The notes under the pieces are model-generated. The model saw nothing but the letters and a program-made list of their open reading frames with translations. It was not told the DNA's origin and did no database searches. Source: Eledone cirrhosa (Eukaryota). From it: DNA of 64,000 nucleotides. Positions within the stretch are counted from its first letter, which is position 1, and each line of letters begins with the position of its first letter. Both the position numbers and the translations under genes were made by a program. The DNA lies in NCBI GenBank assembly GCA_964016885.1, contig OZ024740.1, positions 36,146,001 to 36,210,000 of the forward strand, read 5' to 3'. Shown piece by piece: positions 31,617-64,000 of this stretch.

Positions 31617-31855
31617 ATTTCTTTATTAGCCACAAGGGCGCAACAAGAAAGGGGACAATACAAAGACATGCCGGGGATTTTACATACAGTCGTGTAAAAA
31701 ATGTAAAAACAAACAAACAATTTTAACAATCGAAATCCCCAATAGGGGGGAGGCGCTACAAATGGGTTGTTTAATACCCCGTCGATAGAACAACCCTCAA
31801 CTCAAGGAGCGTGTTGTGCAAGTGCTCCTTTCTTCCTTTTGCTCTCTTCCTCAAC

Positions 31856-34800
31856 CTACAGGCTTATAAACAGAGAAGGCCCAATCACTCGGGCCATTTT
31901 CGCTTCATTCACCCACCTTTCAGTAAATTTACTGGGGTGCAGTGCCTCTCTCTCCACCCTGATTCTCCTTCTAAAGTGATACTTAAAGAATGGAATCAAT
32001 TGTTGTCCGGAGAGAAAGGCATCTGTCCTCAGTCCTCTCAACCTCGTCCACCATATAACTTCTTTCACCATAGCCACCGTACAGAGGAAAACCGCCTCTC
32101 TTTCGTTTTTGAAAGAGTCTGGCGGTTTGATCCTTACTATGGATTCGGCAGTCAACTGTATTTGTCCCATACGCGACAGCAGTTGTTCTGCATAGTTCCA
32201 CAGGTCGCTTACGCCCGGGCAGTGTACAATTGCGTGCAGAACTGTTTCAATGTCCTGCGCACATCTTGGACACGTCCTCTTGGAAGGATCCCTGCCAGGG
32301 CGTCCGTGCCTGTAGATCTTGTCACGAACCGGTAGAGCTCCTCGGTAGCACTGCCAGGCCAGGGACCTCTGGAAGTTGTCCATAGGTCCCGCGCGGAAAG
32401 TCCTACCAAACATACTGGTGAGCTCATCGTCTTCGACGCCCAGAGTCTCTCCGAGCACGTCGTCGCCCTTGTAACGTACAATCCCTCTATAGAATGTCGA
32501 AGTGGAGTATCTACTGATTGCTGCGCCCGCTTGCCAGAGGACTGTGAGCGCCTGAGCGCATTCAATGTGCCAGGCGCCCATCGTTTTCGGTCTTTTCTTC
32601 ACCCAGGACTGCAGCTCCGTTAGCGAGACGAGCTGTGGGAAAGCCTGTCTCACAAACGGTGCCCACACCGGTTGGGGGTCGGTGAGGAATACCTGGAGAT
32701 GCCGCAGCCTCAGCGCATGTTTGCGCATCATCAGCCACGGCATTCCCAGCCCTCCGTTGGAAGGGTGCTGACAGCAGACGGATCTCCTCACCAGCGGAGC
32801 CTGCTTCTTCCACAGAAACTGGAAGAGCATGCGTTCCATCTTGGCGAGGTGTTCACGGGGACAAGGCACGACAGTCAAGCGGTAGTAGATGACGGACGCT
32901 ATGAAAGTGTTCGCCACCTCCGCTCGACCTTTCAAGGACAGTTTGCACTCTGCCCACTTCTGAGTGAGTGCAAACACCTTGGCCGTGACCTCGTTCCAGT
33001 TTTTCTCCACCTGGAGGTCTGGACCGAACCAGACCCCGAGCAATTTCACCGGTCCGTCCGTCCAGCGTCCAACGACGCTGTCGGATGTCATCGGTTTGCC
33101 TCTCCACGTACCGAGTTGCAAACCGACAGACTTGTCTGGGTTTAGTTTTGCTCCCGTCAGCGTTTCGTATTCTTTCAGTATGTTGCCGATCACCCCGATT
33201 TCCGAGGTGCTCGACACCATTACTGTCACGTCGTCGGCATAAGCCGACGCCGCTTTGCGCAGTCCCGGTTCTAGGGGGATGCCCTGCAACAGCTCCAATT
33301 TCCGCAGTAGTGGCTCTAGAGTCAATACATACAGAATGGAGGAGAGAGGGCATCCCTGTCGAATGGAACGCGTGATTGCGAACGGCTCCGATAGGTAGCC
33401 GTTCACCTTGGCCCTCGAGCAGATGCTGGTGTGCATCGCCTCGATCCATCCTCTGAACACGGGACCGAAACCGGCCGCCTTGAGAACCGCTTCCAAGTAT
33501 CGATGGTCGACACTATCGAATGCCTTAGACTGATCCAAGTTGATCAGAGCCCCACCGAAGCCGGGTTTACTACCCACCCTCTCTATGATGTATCGCATGA
33601 GGTGGAGGTTGTCGTGTATGGACCTGGTCGGGATTGCACACGTTTGCGCTTTCCCTACCAGGTTCTCGACGACAAGCGCCAACCTCGTCGCTAGCACCTT
33701 GGCCAAAATCTTTAACTCTGTGTTGAGCAGAGTTATGGGCCTGAAGTTGTTAATTTCGTCCCCCTTGTTCTCGTCTTTCCTGATCAGCGTTACTACGCCC
33801 TTGCCTGCAGAACTGGGAATTCTCCCGTTCTGCTGCCAATTGCAGTAGACGGCTTCGAGGACGCCAGAGAACAAGTCCGGCATGCCTATGTAAAATTCGT
33901 AGGGTAGACCATCTAGACCGGGTGACTTGCGTTTCCCGCAGCGGCCCAGAGCGTCCCGTATCTCAGTGTCCGTGATCGGTCTTTCGCAGAACTCGGCGTC
34001 CGTGTTCGAGAGACGCGGCAGGCCGTCGAGGTATGAACTAAAGTCCATTGCCCCGTTCGGCTCACCGTCGTTCTGCTCAAACAGTCGCGCAAAGTGCCGC
34101 TGAAAGGCCGCGCACATTTGCTTGGGGTCAAGTAGCACGCGTCCGTTTTGGTCTTTCAAAGACCGAATCGTGGACTTGTTGCCACTTTTTGCCTCCGCCA
34201 CTCGGGCCCAGCTGACAGCTTTCGCTCCTTCGTTTCCTAGAGCACGTGTTTTGCTTCTGACCACGCAGCCTTCGTGTTTCGCATCGAAGAACAGGTCCAG
34301 TGCCGTTCTCGACGCTAAAACTCTAGCCGCGTTGCCACTTCTAAGTGCCTCCTCTACCTTGGCTACTAGTTCTCTTTCTATTCTGTTTTTCTCTAAGGCT
34401 AACTCTCTGCTATACCCTATCGATTCTATTCTAATTGCTTTCTTGAGAGAGTACCACCATCTATTGTTGACGATGGCTCCCGTTAACTGTTGCTTGACTA
34501 GTTTACTTATCCGTTCACTGTAAGCTTTACGTGTCGGCAACGACACATTCAGCTTCCAGTATCCGGGACCCTGTCTATGTATTCTATCACGGTTGACTAA
34601 GCAGACGACTAACTTGTGATCTGAATAGGCAACCATGTGCATTCGTGGACAGCTTAACATATCCTTGTCCCTTTCTCTAATGAAGAACATATCTAAATAC
34701 GATCTAGATGTCCCACTGCGGTTTACCCACGTCCACTGTGGTGCAGTCGGGAAATCCAGTCGATACCTATCGGCCAGTTGGAATTGGCCGATTAAAGTTT

Positions 34801-35302
34801 TGAGGCTGTTGCACCCCGCTCTACTGGGACATGCTCCCACATAGTCCCATCGTGCATCTAGGATACCATTCCAGTCCCCCACTAAAAGTAAGGAGCGAGA
34901 CGTTCCCAGAAAAGACTCTAGACGCTTAAAGAAGTCTGGCCGTGATTGCGATTGCCCGGTCGGGGCATAAACGGCCACCAGTCTGAAGGCTCCACCTCCG
35001 ATACTGTTCACGTCTAGGACTACCAGTCTACCCTCCGGGTCCAAGTGTACTTGCTGTACTCCGACGTCCAGGTTCTTCCGAAACATAACAGCCACTCCAC
35101 CTCCACCTCCTGGCTGACAGAGAGATGCGTAGATCTCAAAGTCGTCGAAGATGGGGGTTAGTTGCTGCCTGTTGTGGATTCTGGACTCGGTGATGGCTAT
35201 CACATCCATACTGTGTGACCTAAGGTCGTTTAAAAGTTGGCCCTGTTTCCAGGGCATCCCTAGGCCACGCACATTCACGGTTCCAACTCGTAAACCAGCC
35301 AT
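31856..35302 (-). CDS. Tx1 ORF2: apurinic-like endonuclease + reverse transcriptase + C-terminal zinc-binding domain (1148 aa, intact)
   Basis: APE motifs TVNVRGL, AITE, VYAP, VGDWN, SYLD, SDH. RT motifs KSPGLDG, FRPITLLN, LDQSKAFD, RQGCPLS, YADD. C-terminal CPRC...ETVLHAIVHC. Confidence 0.96.
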   Translation of the reverse strand: MAGLRVGTVNVRGLGMPWKQGQLLNDLRSHSMDVIAITESRIHNRQQLTPIFDDFEIYASLCQPGGGGGVAVMFRKNLDVGVQQVHLDPEGRLVVLDVNSIGGGAFRLVAVYAPTGQSQSRPDFFKRLESFLGTSRSLLLVGDWNGILDARWDYVGACPSRAGCNSLKTLIGQFQLADRYRLDFPTAPQWTWVNRSGTSRSYLDMFFIRERDKDMLSCPRMHMVAYSDHKLVVCLVNRDRIHRQGPGYWKLNVSLPTRKAYSERISKLVKQQLTGAIVNNRWWYSLKKAIRIESIGYSRELALEKNRIERELVAKVEEALRSGNAARVLASRTALDLFFDAKHEGCVVRSKTRALGNEGAKAVSWARVAEAKSGNKSTIRSLKDQNGRVLLDPKQMCAAFQRHFARLFEQNDGEPNGAMDFSSYLDGLPRLSNTDAEFCERPITDTEIRDALGRCGKRKSPGLDGLPYEFYIGMPDLFSGVLEAVYCNWQQNGRIPSSAGKGVVTLIRKDENKGDEINNFRPITLLNTELKILAKVLATRLALVVENLVGKAQTCAIPTRSIHDNLHLMRYIIERVGSKPGFGGALINLDQSKAFDSVDHRYLEAVLKAAGFGPVFRGWIEAMHTSICSRAKVNGYLSEPFAITRSIRQGCPLSSILYVLTLEPLLRKLELLQGIPLEPGLRKAASAYADDVTVMVSSTSEIGVIGNILKEYETLTGAKLNPDKSVGLQLGTWRGKPMTSDSVVGRWTDGPVKLLGVWFGPDLQVEKNWNEVTAKVFALTQKWAECKLSLKGRAEVANTFIASVIYYRLTVVPCPREHLAKMERMLFQFLWKKQAPLVRRSVCCQHPSNGGLGMPWLMMRKHALRLRHLQVFLTDPQPVWAPFVRQAFPQLVSLTELQSWVKKRPKTMGAWHIECAQALTVLWQAGAAISRYSTSTFYRGIVRYKGDDVLGETLGVEDDELTSMFGRTFRAGPMDNFQRSLAWQCYRGALPVRDKIYRHGRPGRDPSKRTCPRCAQDIETVLHAIVHCPGVSDLWNYAEQLLSRMGQIQLTAESIVRIKPPDSFKNEREAVFLCTVAMVKEVIWWTRLRGLRTDAFLSGQQLIPFFKYHFRRRIRVEREALHPSKFTERWVNEAKMARVIGPSLFISL

Positions 35303-35343
35303 GTTGGTGAAGAAAAGTTGGAGAAAAAGGACGAAAGGTGCAC

Positions 35344-37222
35344 TTACCTTTTCGTTTCCTGGAGATCGGGTTGTTCAATCTCCATTTGGGTGCTGGATGG
35401 GGTGTTGGGTGGGGTGGGGAAACCTTTCAACAGGACGCGGTTGATGGGTTTGTGGCAGGGGTTGCCCACGTCCTGTGAAAATTTAATTTTCAGGTCTTTA
35501 TAGGTTTCCATAGAAACCCTTATAAGTTTAAGGTGTGGAGACGATTCTGCCTTGACGAAAGTTTTGCCCTCCGTCTCCACCTTGGGGTTTTGGGAGATGA
35601 CCTCCATCAAACTCTTGTTGTTTGTGTTGATGTATGCGTATTGTTGTTTGTGTTTTTGTTGTATTGTTTTAGTTTGTTGTTCATCTGGGAGTTTTCTTTT
35701 TATGGTGGGTGCTTGTGTTTGGGGTGGTGTTGGTGCTGGTTTTGCTGATAGGGGGGTGTTTGACTGTGGTGTTGTTTGTGTTGTTGTTCGTGTCTGTGGT
35801 TGTGTGTTGGTGTTGGTGATTGGAGTTTTGGGGGTTTTGTGGTGTCTCTTTTTTTGTTTTTTTGATTTCCGCGGTTCTCCCTCTTCTTCACTTAAAGAAG
35901 GAGAAGCAGCTTCATCCGTCGATGAATAATCATCGTCAGGTGTGTGGGGTAAGGGTATGTTGTGTGGTGGTGGTGGTGTTTCGGTATGTGTGTTTGTGGT
36001 AGTGTTTGATGGAGTGGGATGGAGTGGGGATGTGTTCTTCAGGGGTGTTGTCTCTGTTTTTTCTGTTGTTGTTGGTTGAGTGTCTGTTTGTTTTGGTGTG
36101 GTTGCTCGTTTCGTCTGTCGTTGTACTTGTGGTGGTGGTGGTGGTTGTTTTGGTGTTGGTGTTGGTAATAGCGTTTTTTTTTATGATGTTGCTGTTGTGT
36201 GTTTGTGGACAAGAGGCTTTTAGGTGAGATGTGCTACCACAGCGAAAGCAGTGAAATTTTCTTCCTTCTACCGAAATGTTTATTTTATTGTTATTATCAA
36301 TAACGACTCTTTCGGGTATTTTGGAGATTCTCTCCGGTTTCATTTGCAACAGAATCTCCAAATCGGTGCCCGCCCACCTTTGTCGAATGGATTTTCGTAT
36401 CGAAAGTATTATGTCTGTTTCTGGCTCTACGAAGCCAGCCAAGATCCACCAGATGTTAATGCTTGGAGGTATGTTTTTTATTTTTATTTTTTGTGTCCTT
36501 TTCCCCATGTATGTAGGGAAAAAGGTGTATGCTTTTGACACTATTGGTGTCACAGAGTTTTTTTGGGCCAGTGTCTCGCTTTTAAACAGTACGGAAACGC
36601 TTCCGTACTGTTTTCCTCGCTGGAGAAAATCGACATTTGCTAGAATCTCCTTGAAAGAATCTTCTATATCTGACTGATTAACAAATGTCGGTTTTCTTGA
36701 CGAATTTGACACAGTCCTAAAAGTGACTGATCGGCGGTTTGTGTCTTCCTTTATTTCAAGGGGTGAGTTAATTCTAAACCCACCTCTTTCTTCGAAAGTT
36801 ACAAATTTTCTCCCTTGCTGGAGCATATCTCTTGCGTTGGAGATATCAAGATTTATAAAATCTTGTTTCTTGTTGACTGTGTCAGCAAAAGACATTTTCT
36901 TTTTTTGTGTGATGTTGTTGTTAATAATGATGTTATCGTTGTTGGAAATTTTATGTGTAGATGTATCTGTAGAGTTGTTGATGTCTTTTTCATGTGTATG
37001 TATGTCAATGGGTTTTTTTGCCGTGTTTTCCCGTGTGTTATTGTCATTTTTCTCCGCTTCGGCGGTAGAAATTGTAACATTTTCAAATGTTGATATATTT
37101 TTTTCTTTTGTGACAGTATCTATGGCAACGTCCATAGCAGCAGAAGCAGATATAACGTTAACATCTGCCTCTTTCTCTCTCTTTTCACTATTAACGTTCT
37201 CCAGCGTTCTAGTGTTGCTCAA
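35344..37222 (-). CDS. Tx1 ORF1 (gag-like, CCHC zinc knuckle), ~625 aa after correcting one frameshift
   Basis: Knuckle CFRCGSTSHLKASC. The called ORF 35936-37222 leaves frame at the A9 run (36174-36182). Removing one A gives KKTLLPTPTPKQPPPP, which stays open to the stop at 35344 and is homologous to LLPTP in copy 2. Start is TTG at 37222 or ATG at 37135. Confidence 0.85.
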
Positions 37223-37274
37223 GTTTTTTTTACTTTGTAAAATTGGATATTTTAAGAGAAACTTTTAAATAAAA

Positions 37275-37298
37275 TTTTCGCCCCTACAGGGGCGAAAA
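37275..37298. promoter_or_regulatory. Perfect GC-rich hairpin in the Tx1 5'UTR
   Basis: TTTTCGCCCC-TACA-GGGGCGAAAA. A second imperfect hairpin follows at ~37303-37341. Function unknown. Confidence 0.6.
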
Positions 37299-37450
37299 AT
37301 GGGATTACCACCCAGCTGACAATTCAGCTTGGGGGTTAATCTACAAAGTGTTGTATTTTTTTCAAACAATTAGATCGGTTTTTTGCATAGAAATTAACAA
37401 AAAACTTACCGGCGATATTCCACACGTTAGACAGAAAGAGAGATAGATAG

Positions 37451-40400: not shown

Positions 40401-43400
40401 TTGGTATTATTATTGATAGCTGAGGACGAGATAGAGGCAAGCAGTGACAGTTAAGGTCTTGGTTAATATTATTGAGAGGTGAGGACGAGATAGAGGTATG
40501 CAGTGACAGTTAAGGCCTTGGTATTATTATGGATAGGTGAGGACGAGATAGAGGCAAGCAGTGACAGTTAAGGTCTTGGTTAATATTGTTGATAGGTGAG
40601 GACGAGATAGAGGCAAGCAGTCACAGTTAAGGTCTTGATTAATATTGTTGACAAGTGGGGACGAGATAGAGTCAAGCAGTGACAGTTAAGGTCTTGGTTA
40701 ATATTATTGATAGGTGGGGACGAGATAGAGGCAAGCAGTGACAGTTAAGGTCTTGGTTAATATTATTGATAAGTGAGGACGAGATAGAGGCAAGCAGTGA
40801 CAGTTAAGTTCTTGGTTAATATTGTTGATAGGTGAGGACGAGATAGAGGCAAGCAGTGACAGTTAAGGTCTTGGTTAATATTGTTGATAGGTGAGGACGA
40901 GATAGAGGCAAGCAGTGACAGTTAAGGTCTTGGTTAATATTGTTGATAGGTGAGGACGAGATAGAGGTAAGCAGTGACAGTTAAGGTCTTGGTTAATATT
41001 ATTGATAAGTGAGGACGAGATAGAGGTAAGCAGTGACAGTTAAGGTCTTGGTTAATATTATTGATAGGTGGGGACGAGATAGAGGTAAGCAGTGACAGTT
41101 AAGGTCTTGGTTAATATTATTGATAGGTGAGGACGAGATAGAGGCAAGCAGTGACAGTTAAGGTCTTGGTTAATACTATTGATAGGTGAGGACGAGATAG
41201 AGGTAAGCAGTGACAGTTAATGTCTTGGTATTATTATTGATAGGTGAGGACGAGATAGAGGCAAGCAGTGACAGTTAAGGTCTTGGTTAATATTGTTGAT
41301 AGGTGAGGACGAGATAGAGGCAAGCAGTGACAGTTAAGGTCTTGGTTAATATTGTTGATAGGTGGGGACGAGATAGAGGCAAGCAGTGACAGTTAAGGTC
41401 TTGGTTAATATTGTTGATTGGTGGGGACGAGATAGAGGCAAGCAGTGACAGTTAAGGTCTTGGTTAATATTATTGATAAGTGAGGACGAGATAGAGGCAA
41501 GCAGTGACAGTTAAGGTCTTGGTTAATATTGTTGATATGTGAGGACGAGATAGAGGCAAGCAGTGACAGTTAAGGTCTTGGTTAATATTGTTGATAGGTG
41601 AGGACGAGATAGAGGTAAGCAGTGACAGTTAAGGTCTTGGTTAATATTGTTGATAGGTGATGACGAGTTAGAGGCAAGCATTGACAGTTAAGGTCTTGGT
41701 TAATATTGTTGATAGGTGAGGACGAGATAGAGGCAAGCAGTGACATTTAAGTTCTTGGTTAATATTATTGATAGGTGAGAACGAGATAGAGGCAAGCAGT
41801 GACAGTTAAGGTCTTGGTTAATATTATTGATAGGTGGGGACGAGATAGAGGCAAGCAGTGGCAGTTAAGGTCTTGGTTAATATTATTCATAGGTGAGAAC
41901 GAGATAGATGGAAGCACTGACAGTTAAGGTCTTGGTTAATATTATTGATAGGTGAGGACGAGCTAGAGGCAAGCAGTGACAGTTAACGTCTCGGTTAATA
42001 TTGTTGATAGGTGAGGACGAGATAGAGGTAAGCAGTGACAGTTAAGGTCTTGGTTAATATTATTGATAAGTGAGGACGAGCTAGAGGCAAGCAGTGACAG
42101 TTAAGGTCTTGGTTAATATTATTGATAGGTGAGGACGAGATAGAGGCAAGCAGTGAAAGTTAAGGTCTTGCTTAATATTGTTGATAGGTGGGGACGAGAT
42201 AGAGGCAAGCAGTGACAGTTAAGGTCTTGGTTAATATTGTTGATAGGTGAGGACGAGCTAGAGGCAAGCAGTGACAGTTAACGTCTTGGTTAATATTGTT
42301 GATAGGTGAGGACGAGATAGAGGCAAGCAGTGACAGTTAAGATCTTGGTTAATATTATTGATAGGTGAGGACGAGATAGAGGCAAGCAGTGACAGTTAAG
42401 GTCTTGGTTAATATTGTTGATAGGTGGGGACGAGATAGAGGCAAGCAGTGACAGTTAAGGTCTAGGTTAATATTATTGATAGGTGGGGACGAGATAGAGA
42501 CAAGCAGTGACAGTTAAGGTCTTGGTTCATATTATTGATAAGTGAGGACGAGATAGAGGCAAGCAGTGACAGTTAAGGTCTTGGTTAATATTGTTGATAG
42601 GTGAGGACGAGATAGAGGCAAGCAGTGACAGTTAAGGTCTTGGTTAATATTGTTGATAGGTGAGGACGAGATAGAGGCAAGCAGTGACAGTTAAGTTCTT
42701 GGTTAATATTATTCATAGGTGAGAACGAGATAGAGGGAAGCAGTGACAGTTAAGGTCTTTGTTAATTTTATTGATAGGTGAGGACGAGCTAGAGGCCAGC
42801 AGTGACAGTTAACGTCTCGGTTAATATTGTTGATAGGTGAGGACGAGATAGAGGTAAGCAGTGACAGTTAAGGTCTTGGTTAATATTGTTGATAGGTGAG
42901 GACGAGATAAGGGTAAGCAGTGACAGTTAAGGTCTTGGTTAATATTGTTGATAGGTGAGGACGAGTTAGAGGCAAGCATTGACAGTTAAGGTCTTTGTTA
43001 ATATTATTGATAGGTGGGGACGAGATAGAGGTAAGCAGTGACAGTTAAGGTCTTGGTTAATATTATTGATAGGTGAGGACCAGATAGAGGCAAGCAGTGA
43101 TAGTTAAGGTCTTGGTTAATATTGTTGATAGGTGGGGACGAGATAGAGGCAAGCAGTGACAGTTAAGGTCTTGGTTAATATTATTGATAAGTGAGGACGA
43201 GCTAGAGGCCAGCAGTGACAGTTAACGTCTCGGTTAATATTGTTGATAGGTGAGGACGAGATAGAGGTAAGCAGTGACAGTTAAGGTCTTGGTTAATATT
43301 ATTGATAGGTGAGGACGAGATAGAGGCAAGCAGTGACAGTTAAGGTCTTGGTTAATATTGTTGATAGGTGGGGACGAGATTGAGGCAAGCAGTGACAGTT

Positions 43401-43508
43401 AAGGTCTAGGTTAATATTATTGATAGGCGAGAACGAGATAGAGGTAAGCAGTGACAGTTAAGGTCTTGGTTAATATTATTGATAGGTGAGGACGAGATAG
43501 AGGCAAGC
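37451..43508 (+). repeat. 59-bp satellite, right domain (~100 monomers), less ordered
   Basis: Same consensus with a different set of variants (GTATGCAG, TTAGTA, GGTCTAGG). Confidence 0.98.
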
Positions 43509-45382: not shown

Positions 45383-45570
45383 ATAATTATTTCATTTACC
45401 AAAGGTTTCACGAAGACAGACAGGACTGATACAGACGTTTGACTTCGTTCGTCAGAATGAAAATTTATTTAAAATGGATTTTAAATAAATTTTCATTCTG
45501 ACAAGCGAAGTCAGACGTCTGTATCAGGCTTGTCTGTCTTCGTGAGACCTTTGGTAAGTGAAATAATTAT
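45383..45570. mobile_element. 188-bp near-perfect palindrome (fold-back, MITE-like)
   Basis: ATAATTATTTCATTTACCAAAGGTTTCACGAAGACAGACA... pairs with ...TGTCTGTCTTCGTGAGACCTTTGGTAAGTGAAATAATTAT, centred near 45476. Confidence 0.85.
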
Positions 45571-47384: not shown

Positions 47385-47850
47385 AATGGAAAGGGGAGTG
47401 AATGGCAAGCACTCTAGTCTCAGAGAAGAATGTGGAGGGGTGTGGGGAGGAGGTTTGGGATCTGGGCCTAGGGTGCTGCGGTAGAGAGGCTGCACCTCGC
47501 GGACAAGAACGCAAAAGTTTTCTCCTGGACAATGGCTAGCAAAACCCGCTGCAACAGCCACCCTACCCCGGACGGGCCGCCGACGTTCGGATCTTGCGGA
47601 GGAACTCCTTTCCACTGTAAAATATTTTCATCTCCGACTGGTTCGCGGTCGTGCCCTTGGAAGTGGAGACTTCTGGTGTCTTTGACCCTAGGGCTACTTC
47701 CCTATTCACCTCCATAGGCGCTGAGCTGGCCAGCCGCAGGTGTGAGCCTCGCGAGTTGGAATGTCTTTTCCAACGCATCTCCCTTACCCTCCTCCGGGGA
47801 AACGCCTTCTCCATCCTGTCCGCCGGGGTTGTGGGGAGGCCAACACGTGG
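47385..47850 (-). mobile_element. GC-rich dispersed-repeat fragment, possibly the 3' end of a LINE ORF1
   Basis: 47788-47838 recurs at ~63491-63541 (TCCTCCGGGGAAACGCC.TCTCCAT.CTGTCCGCC.GGG.TGTGGGGAG). Family assignment is weak. Confidence 0.35.
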
Positions 47851-48108
47851 GACCCCATTTGCTCACCATACGGATTAATAGGCAAAGTTATAAACTATTG
47901 TAAATAAATAATTATAGTTTTAAAAAAAAAGTAAACGGTTATAGATCATAAATATAAACGACAGTTAAATATTTTCTTCTAGAAATATATTTTATTCAAT
48001 TTCTATTTCAAGGATTGTTTTTGACGTTGCAAATGAAGTGTAAATGGTAAGGCGAGTTAAATAATTATTCGTGTTGTTGTACAGTTGAATATTTCGACAC
48101 CGCATATG

Positions 48109-48109
<1 letters not shown>

Positions 48110-48142
<33 letters not shown>
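48110..48142. repeat. (ATT)11 tract abutting the 5' end of Tx1 copy 2
   Basis: Read directly. Confidence 0.97.
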
Positions 48143-48357
48143 GGCGACCTACGTAGTAAATCGTATCATCGTGAGCTCCGCAAAGATTTGTTATTTTCAG
48201 TTGTTTAAAATTGCCATTTATGGAAATTTTTTATTGTTAACTGTATATAAGTGCACATACATTGATTTCTGAAAAGGACACTCAAAAATATTGGGGCCTT
48301 GAGCCCAAAATTTAAACTTTTTATAATTATCAAACAAAAATTTTTCTTTGAAAAATC

Positions 48358-50240
48358 ATGGCTGACTCAAAGTCACTCCTACCACACAATCTAACACCTC
48401 ACACCGACATCACCATTGTAAATATTGCTACGTTTGCCAACACTGGAAGTGTAAGCAGTAGCAATATTTCTCAGGCAGACGTTCATTTCCCGCCATTACC
48501 AATGACTGCAGGTGTTAAAGCCGCCACCACCACCACCACGACCGCGACAAACCCCACCCCCACCACCACCACAGCGACAACAGAAACAAAAGAAAAAATA
48601 AATTAACTCGTGATATCGAAATGAATTCAACCAAAATGAACTCTTCCACACCGAACACCACTGACGCCACCACCACCACAACTGAAACTAAAATTAACAA
48701 TAGCAAAAATAACGATAACAACAACAGCAACAATGAAATTAAGAAAACTACCCTGAGTTTTGCCAGAGTATCAAAAACGTGCGAAGCGATCCAGGTAACT
48801 CAGGAGGAATTAGAAGAAGCCAAAGGAATGGAAAAGAAAGATGGGTACAGGGTCAGCCTCACCCCCACCTAATAAAATGAAGCAACATCGCCTATGCACC
48901 GTGCCTTATCGGACAATTAACATAAAATCGCGCCGAGTGGAACGGGCATCCGAATCCCAAATCCAAAGAGCTTTGGGACATGTGTGGGAAAAAAAACCCA
49001 CATCAGACGTGGGCAGAAGTATGGAACCGTGGACGTGTTCTTTGAAACACCATAGGAGGCCAGAGAACACTCCATGGCCCCATTAAGAAGTGACGACTTC
49101 ACACACGTCCCAAGCTATTATAGCCAGAGACTTGTGAAGATCAGGGTGACCCACGTTCCACCGGACATCGAAATTCCCTGGCTAATGGCTGCCGTCCTCG
49201 CCGGTATCGAGGCCAACACCAAGATCCAAGCGGACCATAAAAGCATTGAAGAGATCCCAGAGGTAATAGACCTCACTGACGGCAGCCACCTCACCGTAAT
49301 TGTCGAGGGTAGAAGACCTAGGTGTGTCGTTTGTGGTGAAGGAACCCACCTAAGGGCTTTCTGCCCTCAGGCTAAAAGGTTGAGGCCACCTCTCTTACCC
49401 ACCCCAGTGACTCAACCATCAACACCACCAGCAGCAGAAATGGCAGCAACAACTGTAGCAGCAACAACAGAAGCAACTGTAACAGCAACAACCCCAGCAA
49501 CAGTAGCAAAACCAACACCACCACCACCACCCAACGCGCCAGAACTAGCACCAGCGCCTACACCATCCACCACGCCACAACCAAAACCAACGCTTGTGGG
49601 GGATTTTCCACTCCGCGGCTTATCGCAACTGGAGACAGATTGTGACGACGAGGAGTGGGAAACGGTATCAGGAAAAAAGAAAAAAAGAAACCAAAAAAGA
49701 AAAAAATTCTCTTCCTTCCCTCTCCAAAAACAAAATACAGAGGGAAACAAATAAATTATCAAACAAAAAAGTTAGGACAGATATGCCATCATCCACACCA
49801 GAATCACCAACCCCATCACCCCAAACACCAACACCATCACCATCATTAACCCCAACACCACCATCACCAACACCACAAAAGTCACCAAAAAGCGTAACAG
49901 AAACAAACCCACAACAAACGCAAACAAAACAAAACAACCAAAACGATACACACTACACAGCATTAAATTTGAACAACAACCAATTATTACACTACATGCA
50001 ACACAACACCAGCACCACAGAAAAAGACTACACAACAACCCAAAAGATCACACCACCTCCACACATACAAATCACTCGCATCACACAGAAAACGCACACG
50101 ACACTAAAACAAAAATTTCCCAAAGACATCGGAAACTTCCGACAAAACACTCTCCAGGAGGATTTATAAGGACATCCTTCTGGAGGAGGCCACAAGCGGT
50201 GAAAAGGATGGACAAACCATCCTTCCTCTACGAGAAGTAA
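48358..50240 (+). pseudogene. Tx1 copy 2 ORF1, disrupted
   Basis: Zinc knuckle CVVCGEGTHLRAFC after VEGR, plus Thr/Pro-rich tracts. Split across several frames by stops and frameshifts. Confidence 0.85.
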
Positions 50241-50279
50241 GTTAAGTGGTCTTTCCCATCTTTTCCACTCCATTTCAAC

Positions 50280-53200
50280 ATGACCTCACTCAGAATAGGC
50301 AGCATAAATGCGCGTGGCTTGGGGTCGTCATGAAAGCAGGGCCACCTGCTCAACGACCTCAGGTCACTAAACATAGATGTAGTGGCCATCAGCGAGACCA
50401 GAATCTCCGAAGCACGGACTTCGCACCGATCTTCGGCGGCTACGATGTGTACGCATCTCCCAGCCGTCCGGGATCGGGGGTGGAGTTGCTGTGCTTTTTC
50501 GGAGAGGTTTGTATCTCGCCATACGGGCCATATTCCTGGACCGAGAAGGTAAGTTGGTGGTGCTAGACGTGACCAGCGGAGACGGGCAAGCTTTCAGGCT
50601 AGTGGCCGTCTATGCCCCGAGAGGAGCAGGGCGGCCTGATTTGTTCCGGCGTCTGGAGACCTTTCTTGGAACGTCCCGCTCTTTAGTGTTAATGTGCGAC
50701 TGGAACGGGATCTTAGATGCACGCTGGGATTGTGTGGGATTAGCGGATAGGGGAGGAGGGTGCAAGAGCCTCACCAACCTGCTCAGGCGTTTTGAACTGT
50801 CTGACAGGTACCGATTGGATTTCCCGAATGTGCCAATGTGGACTTGGACAAGTCGCATAGGGTCATCCAGATCATATCTAGATAGAGTATTTTGTAGAGA
50901 AATAGATAGGTCTAGCATAGGCTGTCCACAATTCAAGATAGTCAGCTACACGGACCACGAATTCGTGATCTGTGTGCTTGACTTAGATAGGCTTCATAGA
51001 CGAGGACCCGGCTACTGGAAGCTAAACGCGTTGTTAACAGCGCGCAGGGCCTACAGAGACCGGATTAGCGAACTAGTTGAGCGGGCGTTGACGGGGGCCA
51101 TCGTCAACAACAAGTGGTGGTTTGCTCTGAAAAGAGCAATTAGAATAGAGTCCATTAGGTTTAGTAAGGCTTTAGCAATAGAGAAAAATAGAGCAGAGGA
51201 AGAATTAGTTAGAAAATTAGACGAGGCGCTTAGCAAAGGCATCGCGACCGACGTACTTGCGGCGAAATTGGCTCAGTTAGTTCGGGGGAAGCGGCGGGCC
51301 GGATCAAGGGATGGACTTTAGTGTCTACCTCGACGGACTGCGGCGGGTCTCGGTCACTGAGGCGGAGTGTTGCGAAAAGCCGATAACAGCCGCTGAAGTA
51401 CGGGAGGCAAGGACTGGCTGCACAAGGGGTAAATCGCCTGGTTTGGATGGTCTGCCCTATGAATTTTACGTACAGATGCCAGACTTGTTCGGAGGCCTCT
51501 TGGCGGACGTCTACTGCAACTGGCAACAGAACGGAAGAATTCCCAGCTCTGTGAGCCGAGGAGCTGTGGCGCTGCTGAGAAAGGATCCGAACAAGGGGGA
51601 TAACATAGATAATTTTAGGCCCATAACTCTGCTAAACAGAGAGTTCAAGATTTTGGCCAAGGGGCTAGCAAAGAGGTTGGCGCTTGTCGTTGGTGGTCTG
51701 GTGGGAGAGGCGCAGACATGCGCCATTCCCGACAGATCCATCCACTACAACCTCCACCTCATGCGATACATCGTAGAGAGGGTAGCTAGGGAACCTGGCA
51801 CGATTGGGTCCTTGATCAATTTAGATCAGTCGAAAGCTTTCGATAGGGTCGGCCATCGTTACCTAGCGGCAGCCCTGAGGGCGGCTGGCTTTGGGCCCGT
51901 CTTCAGAGGCTGGATCGCTGCCATGCACAGCGACATCTGCTCTGTGGTGAGAGTGAACGGTCACCTTTCGGAACCGTTCAACATCATGCGCTCGGTCCGC
52001 CAAGGATGTCCCCTCTCGTCCCTCTTGTACGTATTGACTCTCGAGCCATTACTGCACAAACTGGAGACGTTGAGGGGGCTCCCGCGCGAACTAGGATGCG
52101 GAAGATCCGTGTCAGCATATGCGGACGATGTCACCGTAGTGGTGTCGAACGTCAAACACATCGAGGCGATCGGCCCTACACTAAGAGAATACGAAGCGGT
52201 GACAAGAGCAATGATCAACCAGGAAAAGTCAGTGGGCCTGCAGCTCGGCACCTGGAGAGGCAGGTCCATGGCGTCCAACAGCGTTGTCGGGCGCTGGACG
52301 GACGGACCAGTTAAATTGCTCGGGGTCTGGTTCGGTCCGGATCTCCAGACGGACAAATACTGGGACGAGGTGACGAGCAGGGTGGCTTCTCTCACCCAGA
52401 AATTGGCCGAGAGGAAGCTATCCCTGAAAGGTCGAGCGGAGGTGGCTAACGCGTATATCGCGTCCGTCATCTACTACGTCCTGACCGTCGTACCTTGTCC
52501 TAAGCCCCGCCTGACTGCGCTGGAGCGTTTGCTCTTTCGCTTTTTGTGGAAGGAACGCGCTCCGATGGTCAGGCGGTCCATCTGCTGTCAACACCGCTAC
52601 GTGGAGGGCTGCGAATGCCGTGGCTGATGATGCGCAGACACGCGCTCAGGCTACGACATCTCCACCTCTTCCTCGACGGTGATCAGGTGAGGTCTCCGTT
52701 TGCTAGACGTGTCTTTCCCCAGCTCGTCTCCTTGACGGAGCTGCAGTCCTGGGTCAAGCGAAGACCGAGAGGGAGCGCTTGGAGACTGGAATGTCTTCAT
52801 GCGCTCACAGCCCTCGACCAATCGGGCAATGTGATCGGTGGAAACTCCACCTTGGCGTTCTATAGAGGATTAGTGGAGGGGAAGAGCGACGACGTACTTG
52901 GAGAAACTCTAGGCGTCGACGAAAATCAACTAGCCAATCTCTTCGGTAGAACTTTCGGGCCGGGGCCTATGGACAACTTCCAGAAATCCCTGGCCTGACA
53001 GTGCTACCGAGGAGCTTTGCCAGTTCGGGATAAACTCTACAGGCATGGAGGTGCCGTCAGCCGGGCATGTCCGAGATGAGCGCAGGGCAACGAAACCGTC
53101 CTGCACGCACTCGCCCGGTGTCCAAAAATTGCTGACTTGTGGGTTTATGTCGAACACCTGCTGTCGCGTGTAGGACGGATCCGGCTATCATCTGAGTCCA

Positions 53201-53484
53201 TCGTGAGGATTGCCCCGCCCTCTTCCTTTAGCCGGGAAGGGCAGGATTTTTTTATCTGTCTGGTGGCCATGGCGAAAGAGATAGTATGGTGGACACGTTT
53301 GAAAGGGCTGAAGACGAGCACTTACCTCTTCGGTGATGCCCTGATTGATTTTATCAAATTTCATTTGAAAAAGAAAATCAGAGTAGAGAGGGAAGTGCTC
53401 TCTTCCCAGCATTTTGTTGAAAGATGGGTGAGAGAAGCAAGAATGGCCCGAGTGAATGGGCCTACTCTGAGTATGTATCTGTAA
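50280..53484 (+). pseudogene. Tx1 copy 2 ORF2 (APE-RT), disrupted
   Basis: MTSLRIGSINARGL, VYAP, CDWN, TDH, KSPGLDG, QGCPLS, YADD. Contains premature TGAs, frameshifts and a ~70-codon deletion near 51273 relative to copy 1. Confidence 0.92.
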
Positions 53485-53726
53485 ATTAAAGGTGGAAAAC
53501 TGGGAGAGGGCACTTGTCCTGGTGGTCAGGGTCACTGTAGTCTTTTAATGGGCTTTCTCCACAAATGTCTCTCGGAAGTCTCCCCCCTATTGGGGAATCT
53601 TTCTTTGTTATTTTATTACATCCTCTGTTTTTTTACACGCAGAAATGCCCATTTGTACCGTCCTGTATTGTCCTGTACTGTCCTTAATGTCTACTTTATG
53701 TAAACCCTTCTGGTTAATAAAGAAAA

Positions 53727-53727
<1 letters not shown>

Positions 53728-53772
<45 letters not shown>
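53728..53772. repeat. (ATT)15 tract shared as 3' boundary by Tx1 copy 2 (+) and the R4/Dong element (-)
   Basis: Read directly. Both elements terminate on it. Confidence 0.95.
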
Positions 53773-56700
53773 GTTCTTTGATTCTCATTCATTGATGTTA
53801 GTTAACTGGAAAGTTTGTTGAAATGAATATCAAGCCACTACCTGCAGCTTCAGATATTCAGGACGTATCGGAGGGTTCTTGCTGTTCCCAGCAAGCATGC
53901 CTTTTGAAGCGTTCCAAAAAGCGTGGCGGGGCCAATTTTCTTTAACCATCCCTGGAAACTTTTTGAGATAGAACCTAGTGCGCCTATGACAATCGGGACC
54001 ACTTTGACTTCATGGCAGTCCAAATCCTTTTTACCTCCTACTTTAAGTCCTGGTATCGGTTAATTTTCTCCCTCTCCTTCTCTTGCACTCTCGTGTCGAA
54101 TGGGCAGGCCACATCCACAATCAGGCACGATCTTTTTTCTTTGTCCAAAACCACCAGGTCAGGTGTATTGTGTTCCAGTTTCTTGTCCGTCTGTATCCTA
54201 AAATCCCACAGCACCTTCACCTGATCGTTTTCTATCACCGACTCTGGCTTATGCTCATACCACTTCTCAGAATGTGGTAAATTGTTTACTTTGCATAGGT
54301 GCCAGTGGATCACCCTGCCCATCACATCATGTCTCCAGCCCTTATAGTGAGTCTGGGCTAGGTGTTTACGCTCGGATACAATGTGAGCCACAGTCTCCCC
54401 TCTCTCTCCACAGATCCTGCATAGTGGGCTAGCCTCATCTTTGTAAATATGGTGTTTCAACCACTTCGTTTTGAGGGCCTGCTCTTGCGCAGCCATTAAC
54501 ATTCCTTCTGCAGCCTGTTTAAGGTCTCCTCTTTTCAACCAGTTCCATGTCTGTGGATCTCTGAATTCAGTTTTCTCAAAGAAGGTACTATGAAGGGATG
54601 TTTCATGAAGGCTGCTCTTTCTCCTTGTTGTTATTTGCTCCTTGGACATCCCCTGGTCTATTGTCCTCTCCTTCAGTACAGTTCTGAGCATTGGCTCCTT
54701 ACTATCAGTCACGTATTTGTGTAGGTTGTTTTTCTCCATCTGAACACAGTCCTCTATGCTGATAAGACCTCTTCCACCTTCAGATCTCCTTAAGTAGAGT
54801 CTATCGACATCACTCCTCTTGTGGAACATGTTGTAGATATTCAATAGCTTCCTTGTCTTCCTATCCATTTCTTTTTGTTCAGCAATATTCCATCTCAGAA
54901 TTCCCGCACTGTACCTAATAATAAACACAGCTCGTGAATTTACTGCTCTTATGGCATTCCTACTGTTCAGAAGTGACTTTAATACGCTCCTTACTCTCCG
55001 AATGTATTCAGATCTTATCAATTCCTTCATTTTTTTGTTCTTGATGTCATCAGCCTCCAGAACACCCAAATACTTGTATCCTTCTTCAGTGTCAATTTCC
55101 TTTATCATCTCACCTGTTGGTACCTGGATTCCGTTGCTTCTGCTCAATTTACCCCTCTTCATCACAAGGACTCCACACTTACTAATACCAAATTGCATAC
55201 ATATATCATTGCTGAAAATACGGACAGTGTCAACAAGCACATCCAACTCCTTCTCACTCTTCCCGAAGAGCCTAAGATCGTCCATGAAGAGGAGGTGATT
55301 GATGGTAAGCTCTCCCTTTCCCAACTTGTATCCTGTTCTCACTTTTCGCAGTATAATGGTCAGGGGCATCAGGGCAAGGACAAATAACACAGGGGACAGA
55401 CTATCTCCCTGGAAGATACCTCTCTTGATCTTCACGCCTCCCAAGGATTCTCCAGCTGATGTTAACTCTGTTTTCCAGGTCTTCATACTTTTGCCCAACA
55501 ACTGTCTGATGTTATCTGCCACCTTGAAGATCTCTAGGCTTTTGGTGATCCAAGAATGAGGCACCATGTCAAATGCCTTTTTGTAGTCTATCCATCCCAT
55601 GGCAAGACCAGTGTGTCTCCTCTTGCAATTCCTCATTACCATCTTATCAATAAGTAACTGGTACTTTGTACCACGGGACCTCTTTCGGCATCCTTTCTGT
55701 TCGTCCGGTAACAAGTTGTTTGTGTGGAGGTGATGGTAGATTTCCTCAGACATAATGCTTGTCAACAGTTTCCACATTACGGACAGACATGTGATAGGTC
55801 TATAGTTGGTAACATCATTACCCTTGATTCGGTCTTTCATTACCAGAACTGTGGTACCTTTTGTCAACCACTCTGGTACCTCACCTGACATCAAGCAGTC
55901 ATTGAACATGGTTGTCAGTTTCGGGTGGAGGGATGTTATATTTTTAATCCAATACCCCTGCACACCATCTGGGCCTGGTGATTTCCAGTTGGTTAGTTTT
56001 TTGGCCTGCCCCTTAAGAGTTTCAACTGTGATACTCAAATCAGTTTGTTGGTGTGCCTGTTCACTAATCTCCTTTTGTACTGTCTCAATCCACACTGCCT
56101 GGGCATTATGTTTAACATCCTGCTCCCATATTCCTCTCCAGAATGTCTTAGTTTGTTCCGCCTCAAGGATCAAGTCGTTGCCTCTTTCTTTCCCTTCAAG
56201 CTGTCCAAACAGCATCTTCTGGTTGTTGTCAAACATGCGGTTCTGTCTATACTGACTGACTCTGCTCTCGTATTGCCTAATTTTTGCACTCTTTGCTACA
56301 ATGCGTTGCTTCAGTTCCTCTATGATAATATTTAGCTTTCTCCTCCTAGTTTTGTACTTTATTTCCAGTCTATTTTTAGTGTCTATGTTTTTTAGTGTCC
56401 CATTCAGTAGGGACTCAGCTTTCCAATGTCATTTCTCATTTCCCTGATTTGACCATTCAGTCGTTTCTTCCACCAAGGATTTGATCTTTCTTGTTTGTTG
56501 TTTCCTCTCGCTTTTATACCAAGTAATTTTCTCACCGCATTTGCTGTTGCTTTGAGGATATTGTTGCACTGGTGAAGGCTACTCGCCTCAAGGTATGGGA
56601 TGACTTTGTTTACCTTAGCTCTTGTTTCTTTTAACTTTTTCCTGTCTACAAATCTTAGGTTCATAGGTTTCCCACTATCATTGTTCAATTCATCTACCAC

Positions 56701-57365
56701 TAAGTTTAGGATATCAACCAAATCTTGTCCTAGCCCGTCAGCATTCATCTCCTCAATGGCCGTATCTTTGTTCCAGGTATTATTTATTTCAGCATTCAGA
56801 TCATTGTCTGCTTCGGATGGTTCCTCCGTTCTCTCAACCTCTTCACCTTCATTTCCTACTGGCTCGTTTGCCTGGCATACTCCACTCTCCATTTCCAACC
56901 TAATCTCTCTGCTCAGTTCCTCCAGTTCCAGCTCGCTTATCCACCCATTAGTTCTTATTACCCGAGCCTGCCCGGCCAATTTTTGTTCATCTAATTTAAA
57001 TAGACCAATCTCGTTCCAGATGTTATGCATCCGTTTCCTATAGCCTTTCTCCTTGGGGTTACTCTTCAGGTAACATTGCATAACAGTTTTATTCAATTCT
57101 TTCGTCCAGTTGGTTCTGGCCCCTTTCCTTCTTCTTCTTCCTCCGACACCAGCTTTATTTGGTTGACAGCCAGGTCCCTGCTGCTGAGCCAGGGAGCACC
57201 TGCTGGGTGAGAGTCTGTCACATGACATTCCAGTCTCCACTTCACCGTTATTCGAACTGTTTAGGTTCGACATTTAAACACTCTTATCGAGGATTGGTGA
57301 ATGTATGGTTACATAACCACCGGTGATTTCATCACTCCCGGTGATTTTTGTGTGGCACTATCACG
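53773..57365 (-). mobile_element. R4/Dong-clade non-LTR retrotransposon (RT + restriction-like endonuclease)
   Basis: Single-ORF layout, short 3'UTR running into (TAA)n on its sense strand. The 5' boundary is uncertain and may extend to 58211. Confidence 0.9.
53850..57273 (-). pseudogene. R4/Dong ORF (~1140 codons) with a few disruptions
   Basis: N-terminal WTKELNKTVMQCY...RKRMHNIW block. RT motifs NWKSPGPDG, YRPITCL, WIDYKKAFD, GIFQGDSLSP, LFMDD. C-terminal CRIC..ETVAHI, RHD, PDLVV..IVDVACP (PD-D/E RLE), VPIVIGALG. Frameshift near 56410, TAG at 54038 and frameshift near 54018. Confidence 0.92.
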
Positions 57366-58211
57366 CTGTAGACGAACATAAATAAACAACAAACAAATAG
57401 ATAAAAAAAAAAAAAAAAGAATAAGCATAAGTTTCATTGTAATGTAATGTTTGAATGTCTGACTTAGTTTTTCCCTTCCCTTCCCTTCTCTGTCTGTCTG
57501 TTTGTTTTTCTTTTCATTTTTCTTTTCTTTACGTTTTTCGTTGTTGCTGTGCTGCTTTGATTTTGATTTTTGTTTTTTTAAATATTTTAACCGGGTCATC
57601 AAATCAGTCTATTTATATCTTTTGATGCCTTCCTCTTTTAGTGGGGACACTACGATGCATGTCTTAGCAGGAGGTAGTGGGAGAGAATAGCGGCGGTAGT
57701 GATAATGAGGCAGTGGTGGTGGTGGTGGTGGTGCTGTGCTAGTAGTACTTAGTAAGAGGTAGTGGGAGAGAATAGCGGCGGTAGCGATAATGAGGCAGTG
57801 GTGGTGGTGATATGATCGTAGTACTGTAGTGATGGTGTTGAAGTTGAAGTAGAAATAGAAGTTGAGGTAACTTGACTAGAGTTTTTAGCGTGGTAGTGGT
57901 GGTGGTGTTGGTGGTGAAATTATTTTTCTGTCTGTCCACTTAGCCATTTAGCTATTTAGCTATTTAGCCATTTTGCCATTTTCCTCCTTTTCGACTATAA
58001 CATTTCTGATCCAAAATTAAATATTAAATATTGGGGCCCTATGCCGTAAAGTAATGCGTTATGGCTTGCTGAACGGGAAAACTGTAATCTTATTGTTCAT
58101 TTGTAATAAGAATTATTCTATCACAGTTGTTTTAAAGAAGTAAAAATCAAAAACTTACGGAAGCGATTCCATAACGATATATATCCACCATGTGCGTTTT
58201 CTTCCCTTCCC
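57366..58211 (-). mobile_element. Tx1-like 5' leader with low-complexity ORF1-like remnant, directly upstream of the Dong ORF
   Basis: Begins right after (AAT)n. TGGAATCGCTTCCGTAAGTTTTTG resembles TGGAATATCGCCGGTAAGTTTTTTG of copy 1, and GGGCCCCAATATTTAA resembles GAGCCCAAAATTTAAA of copy 2. Thr/Pro- and Lys-rich frames follow. Confidence 0.5.
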
Positions 58212-58238
58212 ATTATTATTATTATTATTATTATTATT
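58212..58238. repeat. (ATT)9 tract
   Basis: Read directly. Confidence 0.97.
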
Positions 58239-58877
58239 GGTGGCGTGGTGGGAAACCGTCCTGCACGCACTCGTCCAGTGTCCGAGCATTGCTGACTTGT
58301 GGGTTTATGTCGAACACCTGCTGTTGCGTGTAGGACGGATCCAGCTATCAGCTGAGTCCATCGCGAGGATTGCCCCGCCCTCTTCCTTTAGCCGGGAAGG
58401 GCAGGCAGTTTTTATCTGTCTGGTGGCCATGGCGAAAGAGATAGTATGGTGGACACGTTTAAAAGGGCTGAAGACGAGCACTTACCTCTTCGGTGATGCC
58501 CTGATTAACTTTTTCAAATTTCATTTAAAAATGAAAACAGGGGAGAAAGGGAAGTGCTCTCTTCCCAGCATTTTGTTGAAAGATGGGTGAGAGAGGCAAG
58601 AATGGCCCGAGTGAATGGGCCTACTCTGAGTATGTGTCTGTAAATTAAAGGTGGAAAACTGGGAGAGGGCACTTGCCCTGGTGGTCAGGGTCACTGTGGA
58701 TTTTTAATGGGCTTTCTCCACGAATGTCCCTCGGAAGTCTCCCCCCTATTGGGGAATTTTTTCATTGTTCTATTATTACATCCTCTGTTTCTTGTTTTTT
58801 ACACGCAGAAATGCCCATTTGTACCGCCCCATATTGTCCTGTACTGTCCTTAATGTCTACTTTATGTAGACCCTTCT
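58239..58877 (+). mobile_element. 5'-truncated Tx1 (copy 3), same family as copy 2
   Basis: 58252-58877 aligns closely with 53092-53711. It carries 13 extra nt (GGTGGCGTGGTGG) at the 5' junction and ends in (CTT)n instead of AATAAA/(ATT)n. Confidence 0.93.
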
Positions 58878-58899
58878 CTTCTTCTTCTTCTTCTTCTGT

Positions 58900-61295: not shown

Positions 61296-61345
61296 TACCA
61301 TTCAAGGACTGGGGACGATTCTTCCACTCTATCTCTTTCTCATTA

Positions 61346-61478
61346 TTGGCAGTATCGGTTTGAGTTCAAATCCCGCTGAGGTTAACTTTGCCTTTCATCC
61401 TTACGGGGTCGATAAAATAAAATACCAGTAATACACTGGGATAATTGCTGGCCTTTTGCCAAAAGTAGAAACAATTAT
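61346..61478 (+). mobile_element. SINE (3478 family) with an internal deletion in the head
   Basis: TTGGCAGTATCGGT is fused to TTGAGTTCAAATCCC, a deletion between two TCGGT microhomologies. Same core and AGAAACAATTAT end. Confidence 0.88.
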
Positions 61479-61626
61479 TTCTCTAACACACTCCCTCTCT
61501 TTCTCTGCAAGAAATCGACTGTATACAGATTTGGAGAGAGGATGAGCTACACCAGATTTTATAATGCCAAAATCTCACTGTATGTCACTATGCCTCCCCT
61601 ACGATACCAGCAGGAGTTACGGGTCC

Positions 61627-63479: not shown

Positions 63480-64000
63480 AAATCCCTTGCCGTCCTCCGG
63501 GGAAACGCCCTCTCCATTCTGTCCGCCAGGGCTGTGGGGAGATAAGCCGATTATATTACGAATTCTGTTGAATAGTCTTAAATACGATTAAGAAGTTTCA
63601 GATTTTACAATAAGGAACCGAAGTATAAAGGGGTATCATATACAACTCAATGAAACATGCTGGATAAGTCAGGCTCTTATATTAAAGGAACAATTTCACT
63701 TTGCTTAGATTGTGAATCCAATCTTAGATAAGATATTGTACTTTTTTAATGGAGATTATCATTTGTCATTAGTTATATAAAAATCAACAAATATTTTTGT
63801 GTGCTTCTTCCATGTTGATAATGTAGATAAATCATTTGTGGGAATTGTTAAATGTTTCGAGATGATAGTTAATTCTTCTTTATCATAAATAGGTTTTTTT
63901 CTTAAAATATATTTAAGGCTTTCGGAAATGATAAGAGAAGCCTAAGTAAGCAAATATAAACAATAAACAAAAAAATGGGATAAATGCAAGATAAGACATA

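What the first reader, a model, noticed from the sequence alone, without database searches (positions are those of the whole stretch)
48110..58897. Retrotransposon train on one (ATT)n microsatellite: APE-type Tx1 and RLE-type Dong use opposite strands of the same target
Seen: (ATT)11 - Tx1 (+) - (ATT)15 - Dong (-) - (ATT)9 - truncated Tx1 (+). Five of the six element ends fall on an ATT tract, Tx1 and Dong meet tail-to-tail on the shared (ATT)15, and both Tx1 copies start with GG right after ATT. Known: Dong (R4 clade) targets (TAA)n, and some Tx1 lineages target microsatellites (e.g. Kibi and Koshi on TC and TTC repeats). Inference: an (ATT)n-specific Tx1 family has converged, with an unrelated endonuclease, on the Dong target in the opposite orientation. 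Each insertion regenerates target for both, giving a self-perpetuating landing pad.
Basis: partly seen in the sequence, partly recalled or inferred. Interest (0 to 1): 0.75.

Follow-up and report, generated by a model that had tools for sequence, protein, structure and literature searches.

The report
Opposite-strand retrotransposons sharing ATT repeats
Two unrelated kinds of jumping gene sit in the same three-letter ATT repeats across this animal genome, almost always facing opposite ways, likely because each one cuts its own strand of the repeat and leaves repeat on both sides for the next; repeat-seeking elements are known, but I found no report of this target for the first kind.

Summary
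The train is (ATT)11, an APE-type L1/Tx1-like LINE (+), (ATT)15, an RLE-type Dong-like LINE (-), (ATT)9, then a truncated LINE ending on (TCT)7. ATT lies at the 5' junction of 36 of 39 copies picked by their head, 23 of 24 full-length copies picked by their tail, and 11-13 of 21 5'-truncated copies (chance 0.13%). One copy splits a tract that is empty in 25 paralogous sites. Across shared tracts 84 of 86 LINE neighbours keep the polarity. Limits: an abundant SINE and a few LINE copies use a bare ATTAT site, so the cut signal is probably short; co-clustering is no more than a shared target explains on one of two tests; Tx1 and Dong membership could not be tested on a tree. A sister family in the same window uses (TCTA)n or AATAT sites, and that choice tracks its sub-lineage. 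This scan has already noted the ATT sharing, the SINE and the TCTA sister at many other places in this genome. New variant of a known kind.

The parts
48110..48142 (+). (ATT)11 tract, 5' flank of the first LINE
48143..53727 (+). Full-length but broken L1/Tx1-like LINE of the ATT family A: ORF1 with CCHC knuckle, ORF2 (about 50280-53484) with APE, RT and C-terminal CCHC; internal deletion near 51280; poly(A) signal 7 nt before the tract
   Evidence: ends fixed by genomic copies
53728..53772 (+). (ATT)15 tract shared tail-to-tail by the two LINEs
53773..58211 (-). Full-length Dong-like RLE LINE: ~940-nt 5' UTR, one ORF from 57273 (frameshift near 56410, stop at 54038-54040) with RT, CCHC-type knuckle and PD..D nuclease motif
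   Evidence: ends fixed
58212..58238 (+). (ATT)9 tract shared head-to-head by the Dong-like element and the truncated LINE
58239..58876 (+). 5'-truncated family-A copy; 13 unaligned letters, then 92.8% identity to 53092-53711; last ~18 nt of the family missing
58877..58897 (+). (TCT)7 tract at the sixth end
31617..37450 (-). Outside the given coordinates: sister LINE (73% nt identity in ORF2, open 1148-aa ORF2) of the TCTA/AATAT-site family, inserted in the 59-bp satellite with a 13-bp duplication (one mismatch)

Best explanation
The locus is a chain of insertions by two unrelated LINE groups that occupy (ATT)n tracts on opposite strands genome-wide, likely because the APE enzyme of the Tx1-like group nicks the (AAT)n strand and the RLE enzyme of the Dong-like group nicks the (ATT)n strand to prime reverse transcription. 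Shown: junction enrichment at both ends, polarity, one filled versus many empty paralogous sites, duplications of 11-16 bp in LINE copies whose flank is not pure repeat, and a fixed junction phase (51 of 53 full-length heads follow a complete ATT; 48 of 53 tails go on with ATTAT). Inferred: both nicks fall at T-A steps; a short signal (ATTAT) suffices for cutting, and a few RNA 3' letters read past the poly(A) signal pair with the nicked strand, which would favour long tracts for the LINE; each insertion splits the tract and duplicates part of it, so target is left on both sides and chains grow with no partnership between the two groups.
For: 5' junctions of family A: 36 of 39 non-window copies picked by head have three perfect units at the junction (the rest have interrupted tracts); 23 of 24 full-length copies picked by tail; 11-13 of 21 plain truncations (binomial p 6e-27 for 11 of 21). 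3' junctions: A 64 of 67, family C 36 of 39. Dong-like: 5' 27 of 29, 3' 28 of 29, truncated 21 of 26 strict. Empty site: L326 against 25 empty arms of 28. Polarity: 39 of 40 Tx1-like and 45 of 46 Dong-like neighbours. Visible duplications: L077, L395 (15 bp at a two-unit site, no added tail), and TCTA-family copies. Occupied tracts: median 10 + 11 units against 4 for random tracts. Known: Dong targets (TAA)n, also in molluscs (PMC7998251, PMC3812793, passages); endonuclease swap moves target in TRAS1/SART1 (PMC7265360, passages).
Against: 8-10 of 21 truncated family-A copies lack the tract at the 5' junction, so specificity is incomplete or later events hide it. Full-length heads are weak evidence alone: the sister copy in the window carries TCTA units inside its duplication, so a 5' repeat can travel with the element. 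The SINE with a similar 3' end uses bare ATTAT sites (only 4 of 30 in three or more units). Searches return the 40 best-scoring copies, not a random draw. Long occupied tracts fit preference for long tracts as well as lengthening. No enzyme or RNA data.
Confidence: 0.8

Rival explanations
1. The RNA end, not the enzyme, picks the repeat: a loosely T-A-specific endonuclease nicks many A+T-rich sites, and only those that pair with the few letters read through from the donor copy's own 3' flank are used, so target is inherited from where the parent sat.
For: In the sister family the site class follows the sub-lineage: 10 of 10 copies with one 3' UTR marker are at AATAT sites (Fisher p 0.0002) and 7 of 7 with a 5-bp deletion at TATCT sites (p 0.006), 30 copies examined. 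Over residues 126-258 one TATCT copy and two AATAT copies have the same hairpin loop and differ by private changes only. The poly(A) signal lies 7 nt before the tract. Pairing of RNA end and target is described for SART1 and R1Bm (PMC7265360, passages).
Against: Only 2 of 8 stretches fetched reached the APE domain and its N-terminal half was not compared. Thirteen copies without either marker are mixed (5 AATAT, 8 TATCT). ATT and TCTA families differ at ~40% of APE residues, including three hairpin positions, and TCTA families form one side of a supported branch (88/100), as enzyme-set targets predict. Published work makes the endonuclease the main determinant (PMC7265360, PMC4494074, passages).
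Confidence: 0.25
2. ATT tracts are made by the elements (encoded or slipped tails and a repeat carried on the 5' end) and chains arise by tandem priming or recombination, with no targeting.
For: A 5' repeat can be element-borne in the sister family; many tracts in the random sample are tails of SINEs or LINEs.
Against: Truncated copies cannot carry a 5' repeat yet 11-13 of 21 have one; L326 fills a pre-existing tract; L395 has no added tail.
Confidence: 0.04
3. Insertion is near-random at short ATTAT sites and selection or recombination leaves long LINEs only in tracts and clusters.
For: The SINE shows that bare ATTAT sites are used in this genome; L129, L147 and L395 are LINE copies at short sites.
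Against: Copies are young (96-98% identical to the window copy) and short truncated copies of a few hundred bases show the same bias; selection would not set strand polarity or junction phase.
Confidence: 0.08

Closest known systems
Microsatellite-specific Tx1-clade LINEs: Kibi (TC)n, Koshi (TTC)n, crocodilian families on (TTCC)n/(TTTC)n (PMC4494074: passages and section 15 read; its figure 3 and supplements could not be seen)
   Same: Two-ORF APE LINE inserted in one orientation into a simple repeat; sister families with different repeats.
   Different: Targets here are (ATT)n and (TCTA)n/AATAT, both with T-A steps, not pyrimidine runs; invertebrate host; kinship to Kibi/Koshi not tested.
Dong, DongAg, DongBg and ostracod Dong (R4 clade, RLE) (PMC3812793, PMC7998251: passages read)
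   Same: One ORF with RT and C-terminal RLE, no N-terminal zinc finger seen, flanked by (TAA)n on the sense strand.
   Different: Nothing essential; here it shares tracts with an APE LINE. The ordinary half of the finding.
TRAS1 and SART1 of Bombyx mori (PMC7265360: passages read)
   Same: Two LINE groups enter one repeat in opposite directions; a nick at a T-A step; short recognition site; RNA-target pairing proposed.
   Different: Both are APE elements on telomeric (TTAGG)n (R1 clade is recalled); here one enzyme is APE and the other RLE, and the target is a dispersed microsatellite.

Membership tests
Tx1 clade (L1 group) | Two ORFs, ORF1 with a zinc knuckle | tested here: met
   C-x2-C-x4-H-x4-C in ORF1 of the window copy and L130; no Pfam family for ORF1
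Tx1 clade (L1 group) | ORF2 with N-terminal APE, RT and C-terminal CCHC | tested here: met
   PF03372 and PF00078; zf-RVT weak in the sister ORF2; best solved matches of the sister APE are L1 endonuclease and its loop chimeras, E 6e-6 to 3e-5
Tx1 clade (L1 group) | RT tree places it with named Tx1, Kibi, Koshi, Keno | not testable with these tools
   Of 44 homologues only a Ciona pol-like protein (26%) and an unnamed algal product carry source names; Atlas gave no answer. The name Tx1 is recalled from the layout.
Tx1 clade (L1 group) | Target preference with target-site duplication | tested here: met
Dong / R4 clade | Single ORF with RT, CCHC knuckle and PD-(D/E)xK nuclease at the C terminus | tested here: met
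   Motifs read (last Cys is Arg in this copy, Cys in five homologues); best solved matches are R2 proteins, E 5e-27
Dong / R4 clade | Divergent N-terminal Myb/SANT domain, no N-terminal zinc fingers (PMC7998251) | tested here: inconclusive
   A conserved W-rich block at residues 56-118 in six sequences but no Myb/SANT Pfam match at E<=1; no zinc finger seen by eye
Dong / R4 clade | (TAA)n target | tested here: met
   27 of 29 heads, 28 of 29 tails, 21 of 26 truncations
Dong / R4 clade | RT tree places it with named Dong/R4 | not testable with these tools
   The 120 listed homologues bear no family names

The most novel reading that the evidence does not exclude
Target choice in this LINE radiation is heritable through RNA rather than protein: the few letters a copy reads past its own 3' end steer its daughters to the same kind of site, so a lineage can switch between ATT, TCTA and AATAT landing sites by one off-target jump, and one such lineage has settled on the Dong target from the other strand.
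Probability: 0.22. Interest if true: 0.8.

Novelty: new variant of a known kind. Interest (0 to 1): 0.52.

Why it matters
It adds (ATT)n to the targets of APE LINEs and gives a case where APE and RLE enzymes converge on one repeat from opposite strands. How APE LINEs recognise microsatellites is stated to be poorly understood (PMC3812793, passage). The genome holds young sister families about 60% identical in the endonuclease with different targets, natural copies with open APE frames, and a likely partner SINE whose duplications mark the cut site, which makes enzyme-versus-RNA targeting directly testable. About 40% of (ATT)>=4 tract sides in the random sample abut one of these elements (14 of 35 and 15 of 35), so they shape this microsatellite class and would confound ATT markers.

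Tried and rejected
Shared GG start as a signal: rejected. Idea that 57400-58211 is not part of the Dong-like element: rejected, 29 of 29 other hits continue into it. A presumed third Dong 3' end proved to be an alternative head of the Tx1-like family, preceded by ATT in 16 of 16 listed instances. Special attraction between the two groups: Dong-like element across family-A tails 20 of 67 against 6 of 35 random tracts, p 0.23; Tx1-like across Dong tails 10 of 29 against 2 of 35, p 0.004; tract length was not controlled and 4 of the 6 random cases come from one duplicated block, so undecided. Automatic duplication finding inside pure tracts was uninformative. No RNA holder listed; contigs of four runs could not be read across the tract. 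Atlas gave no result. ARAGORN found no tRNA in a locus with SINE copies, so the tRNA origin of the SINE is recalled only. The original Dong paper was not held; Kojima and Fujiwara 2004 was seen only as cited. Literature searches showed no ATT- or TCTA-targeting Tx1 family and no report of sharing with Dong; Repbase entries, subscription papers and the figure and supplements of PMC4494074 were not seen and may list such targets. PMC13282606 (part 1 of 3 read) and PMC8967140 (passages) report young L1-Tx1 and Dong-R4 in octopods without targets in what I read.

Full report
Observation. They are the only (ATT)>=4 tracts in the window. The first element has APE and RT domains, the second RT plus a C-terminal CCHC-type knuckle and PD..D motif, with R2 proteins as best solved matches. 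Five of six ends are on ATT. The sixth lacks the last ~18 nt and ends on (TCT)7; internal priming on a CTT tract or a later small deletion would both explain it. The GG at the start of the truncated copy lies in 13 unaligned letters and is not a family trait. The order of the three insertions cannot be read.

Genome. G000 is 3.0 Gb in 1796 contigs. That it is an octopod is my recall from repeat types and the wording of earlier notes, not a test. First-look candidates were 1988 for the head of family A, 1892 for the Dong-like head and 828 for the sister head; these are not copy numbers. All samples below are the best-scoring 25-40 matches per query, so they lean to young copies like the query.

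Is ATT a target or only a tail? Null: 0.13% of 170,760 sampled positions have three ATT units within 6 nt upstream. Copies picked by head: 36 of 39 have three perfect units at the junction. Because a 5' repeat can travel with a full-length element (the sister copy at 31617-37450 has TCTA units inside its duplication), I picked copies by their 3' end only. Of 29 such loci extended upstream, 24 were full-length and 23 had ATT at the head (15 automatic, 4 resolved, 4 with an alternative head; L129 had none); 2 were inversions, 2 plain truncations, 1 a head joined to a tail. Plain truncations and the extension number 21; 13 have the tract, 11 without counting letters shared with the element. Dropped: 3 inversions, L145, the window copies, and 19 loci that ran off the fetched DNA. 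A second ATT family (C) has the tract at 36 of 39 tails; only two true truncations were seen, one on ATT and one (L395) at a two-unit site with a 15-bp duplication and no added tail; one full-length copy in the random sample has ATT at both ends. A dispersed host repeat carries an internal ATT tract: 25 of 28 distinct arms are empty, 3 hold a SINE, none a LINE; L326, found from the LINE side, holds a full-length copy between the same flanks. So insertion into existing tracts is shown.

Dong-like side. (AAT)>=3 at 27 of 29 heads and 28 of 29 tails and at 21 of 26 truncations; three extended loci whose 5' ends were not resolved were dropped. A second Dong-like family, about 42% identical in protein, also ends on AAT. 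This matches the published (TAA)n target.

Polarity and clustering. Reading across the tract from 203 anchored ends, 86 neighbours were LINEs: 39 of 40 Tx1-like had ATT on their sense strand, 45 of 46 Dong-like had AAT; a few tracts may be counted from both sides. Excess pairing over random tracts was absent on one test (p 0.23) and present on the other (p 0.004), without control for tract length. Occupied tracts are long: median 10 units 5' and 11 units 3' for 53 full-length copies against 4 for 90 random tracts.

Cut site. 51 of 53 heads follow a complete ATT and 48 of 53 tails go on with ATTAT, which puts both inferred nicks at T-A steps. A SINE (30 copies with both ends in 600 kb) has a 3' end that resembles the LINE ends by eye; 26 of 30 are followed by ATTAT after one letter, only 4 of 30 by three or more units, and 24 of 30 show duplications of 8-21 bp. 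If this LINE group moves the SINE (inferred), the cut signal is short and the LINE's preference for long tracts needs a second cause, most simply pairing of read-through RNA letters, since the poly(A) signal lies 7 nt before the tract.

Sister family. The LINE at 31617-37450 is 73% identical in ORF2 DNA and about 60% in the APE domain. By eye 23 of 25 heads follow two or more TCTA units. Of 30 tails, 15 go on with TATCT and 15 with AATAT, often with clear 11-16 bp duplications; the query was the window's own AATAT-class copy, which biases this split. The class tracks 3' UTR markers (p 0.0002 and 0.006; 13 columns tested). The C-terminal half of the APE domain did not differ by class in the three copies that could be compared. 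On a tree of the last ~330 residues the TCTA families are one side of a branch (88/100); the ATT families and the root are unresolved, so the direction of the switch is unknown.

Comparison. Microsatellite-specific Tx1 families and their target changes are known, Dong on TAA is known, and opposite-direction use of one repeat is known for TRAS1/SART1. Seven searches showed no ATT-targeting APE LINE or APE/RLE sharing; Repbase and unseen figures and supplements could hold it. Clade membership by tree was not testable. Earlier notes of this scan report the same system at other places in this genome; I looked after my own tests, and none lay near this window. In the lines shown I did not see the lineage-linked AATAT/TATCT split.

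Verdict. Real and well supported as target sharing on opposite strands (0.8); a new target and combination within a known lifestyle; interest 0.52.

Noticed in passing
window 5177-31615 and 37451-43508: A 59-bp satellite of about 550 units, split by the sister LINE at an AATAT site; L164, about 0.9 Mb away on the same contig, shows the family at the same satellite position.
   Followed up: partly
window about 61340-61480; 3016-3144; 3545-3668: Copies of the abundant SINE whose 3' end resembles the LINE ends and whose insertions start at ATTAT.
   Followed up: partly
window about 47420-47862 and 63483-63541: Fragments that read like the 3' end of another RLE retrotransposon (CRE-like, recalled, not tested).
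   Followed up: no
first 40-60 nt of the Dong-like head (58211 downward), the sister head (37450 downward), L185 and L338 heads: A GTAAG(T) splice-donor-like motif recurs near the 5' end of unrelated LINE families, yet genomic copies keep the following sequence; the Dong-like 5' UTR also has an acceptor-like T-rich run near 57360-57420.
   Followed up: no
L135, L137, L139, L144: A family-A subfamily with a replaced 5' UTR and ORF1 start but the same ORF2; it also starts right after ATT.
   Followed up: partly
L342-L371: A dispersed host repeat, often in inverted pairs, with an internal (ATT)5-18 tract that serves as a ready target.
   Followed up: partly
L125, L130, L341; window 58877-58897: Compound (CTT)n/(ATT)n tracts at family-A ends.
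   Followed up: no
window 45383-45570 and 43651-43837/45103-45289: A 188-bp imperfect palindrome (91%) and a 187-bp direct repeat pair (94%).
   Followed up: no
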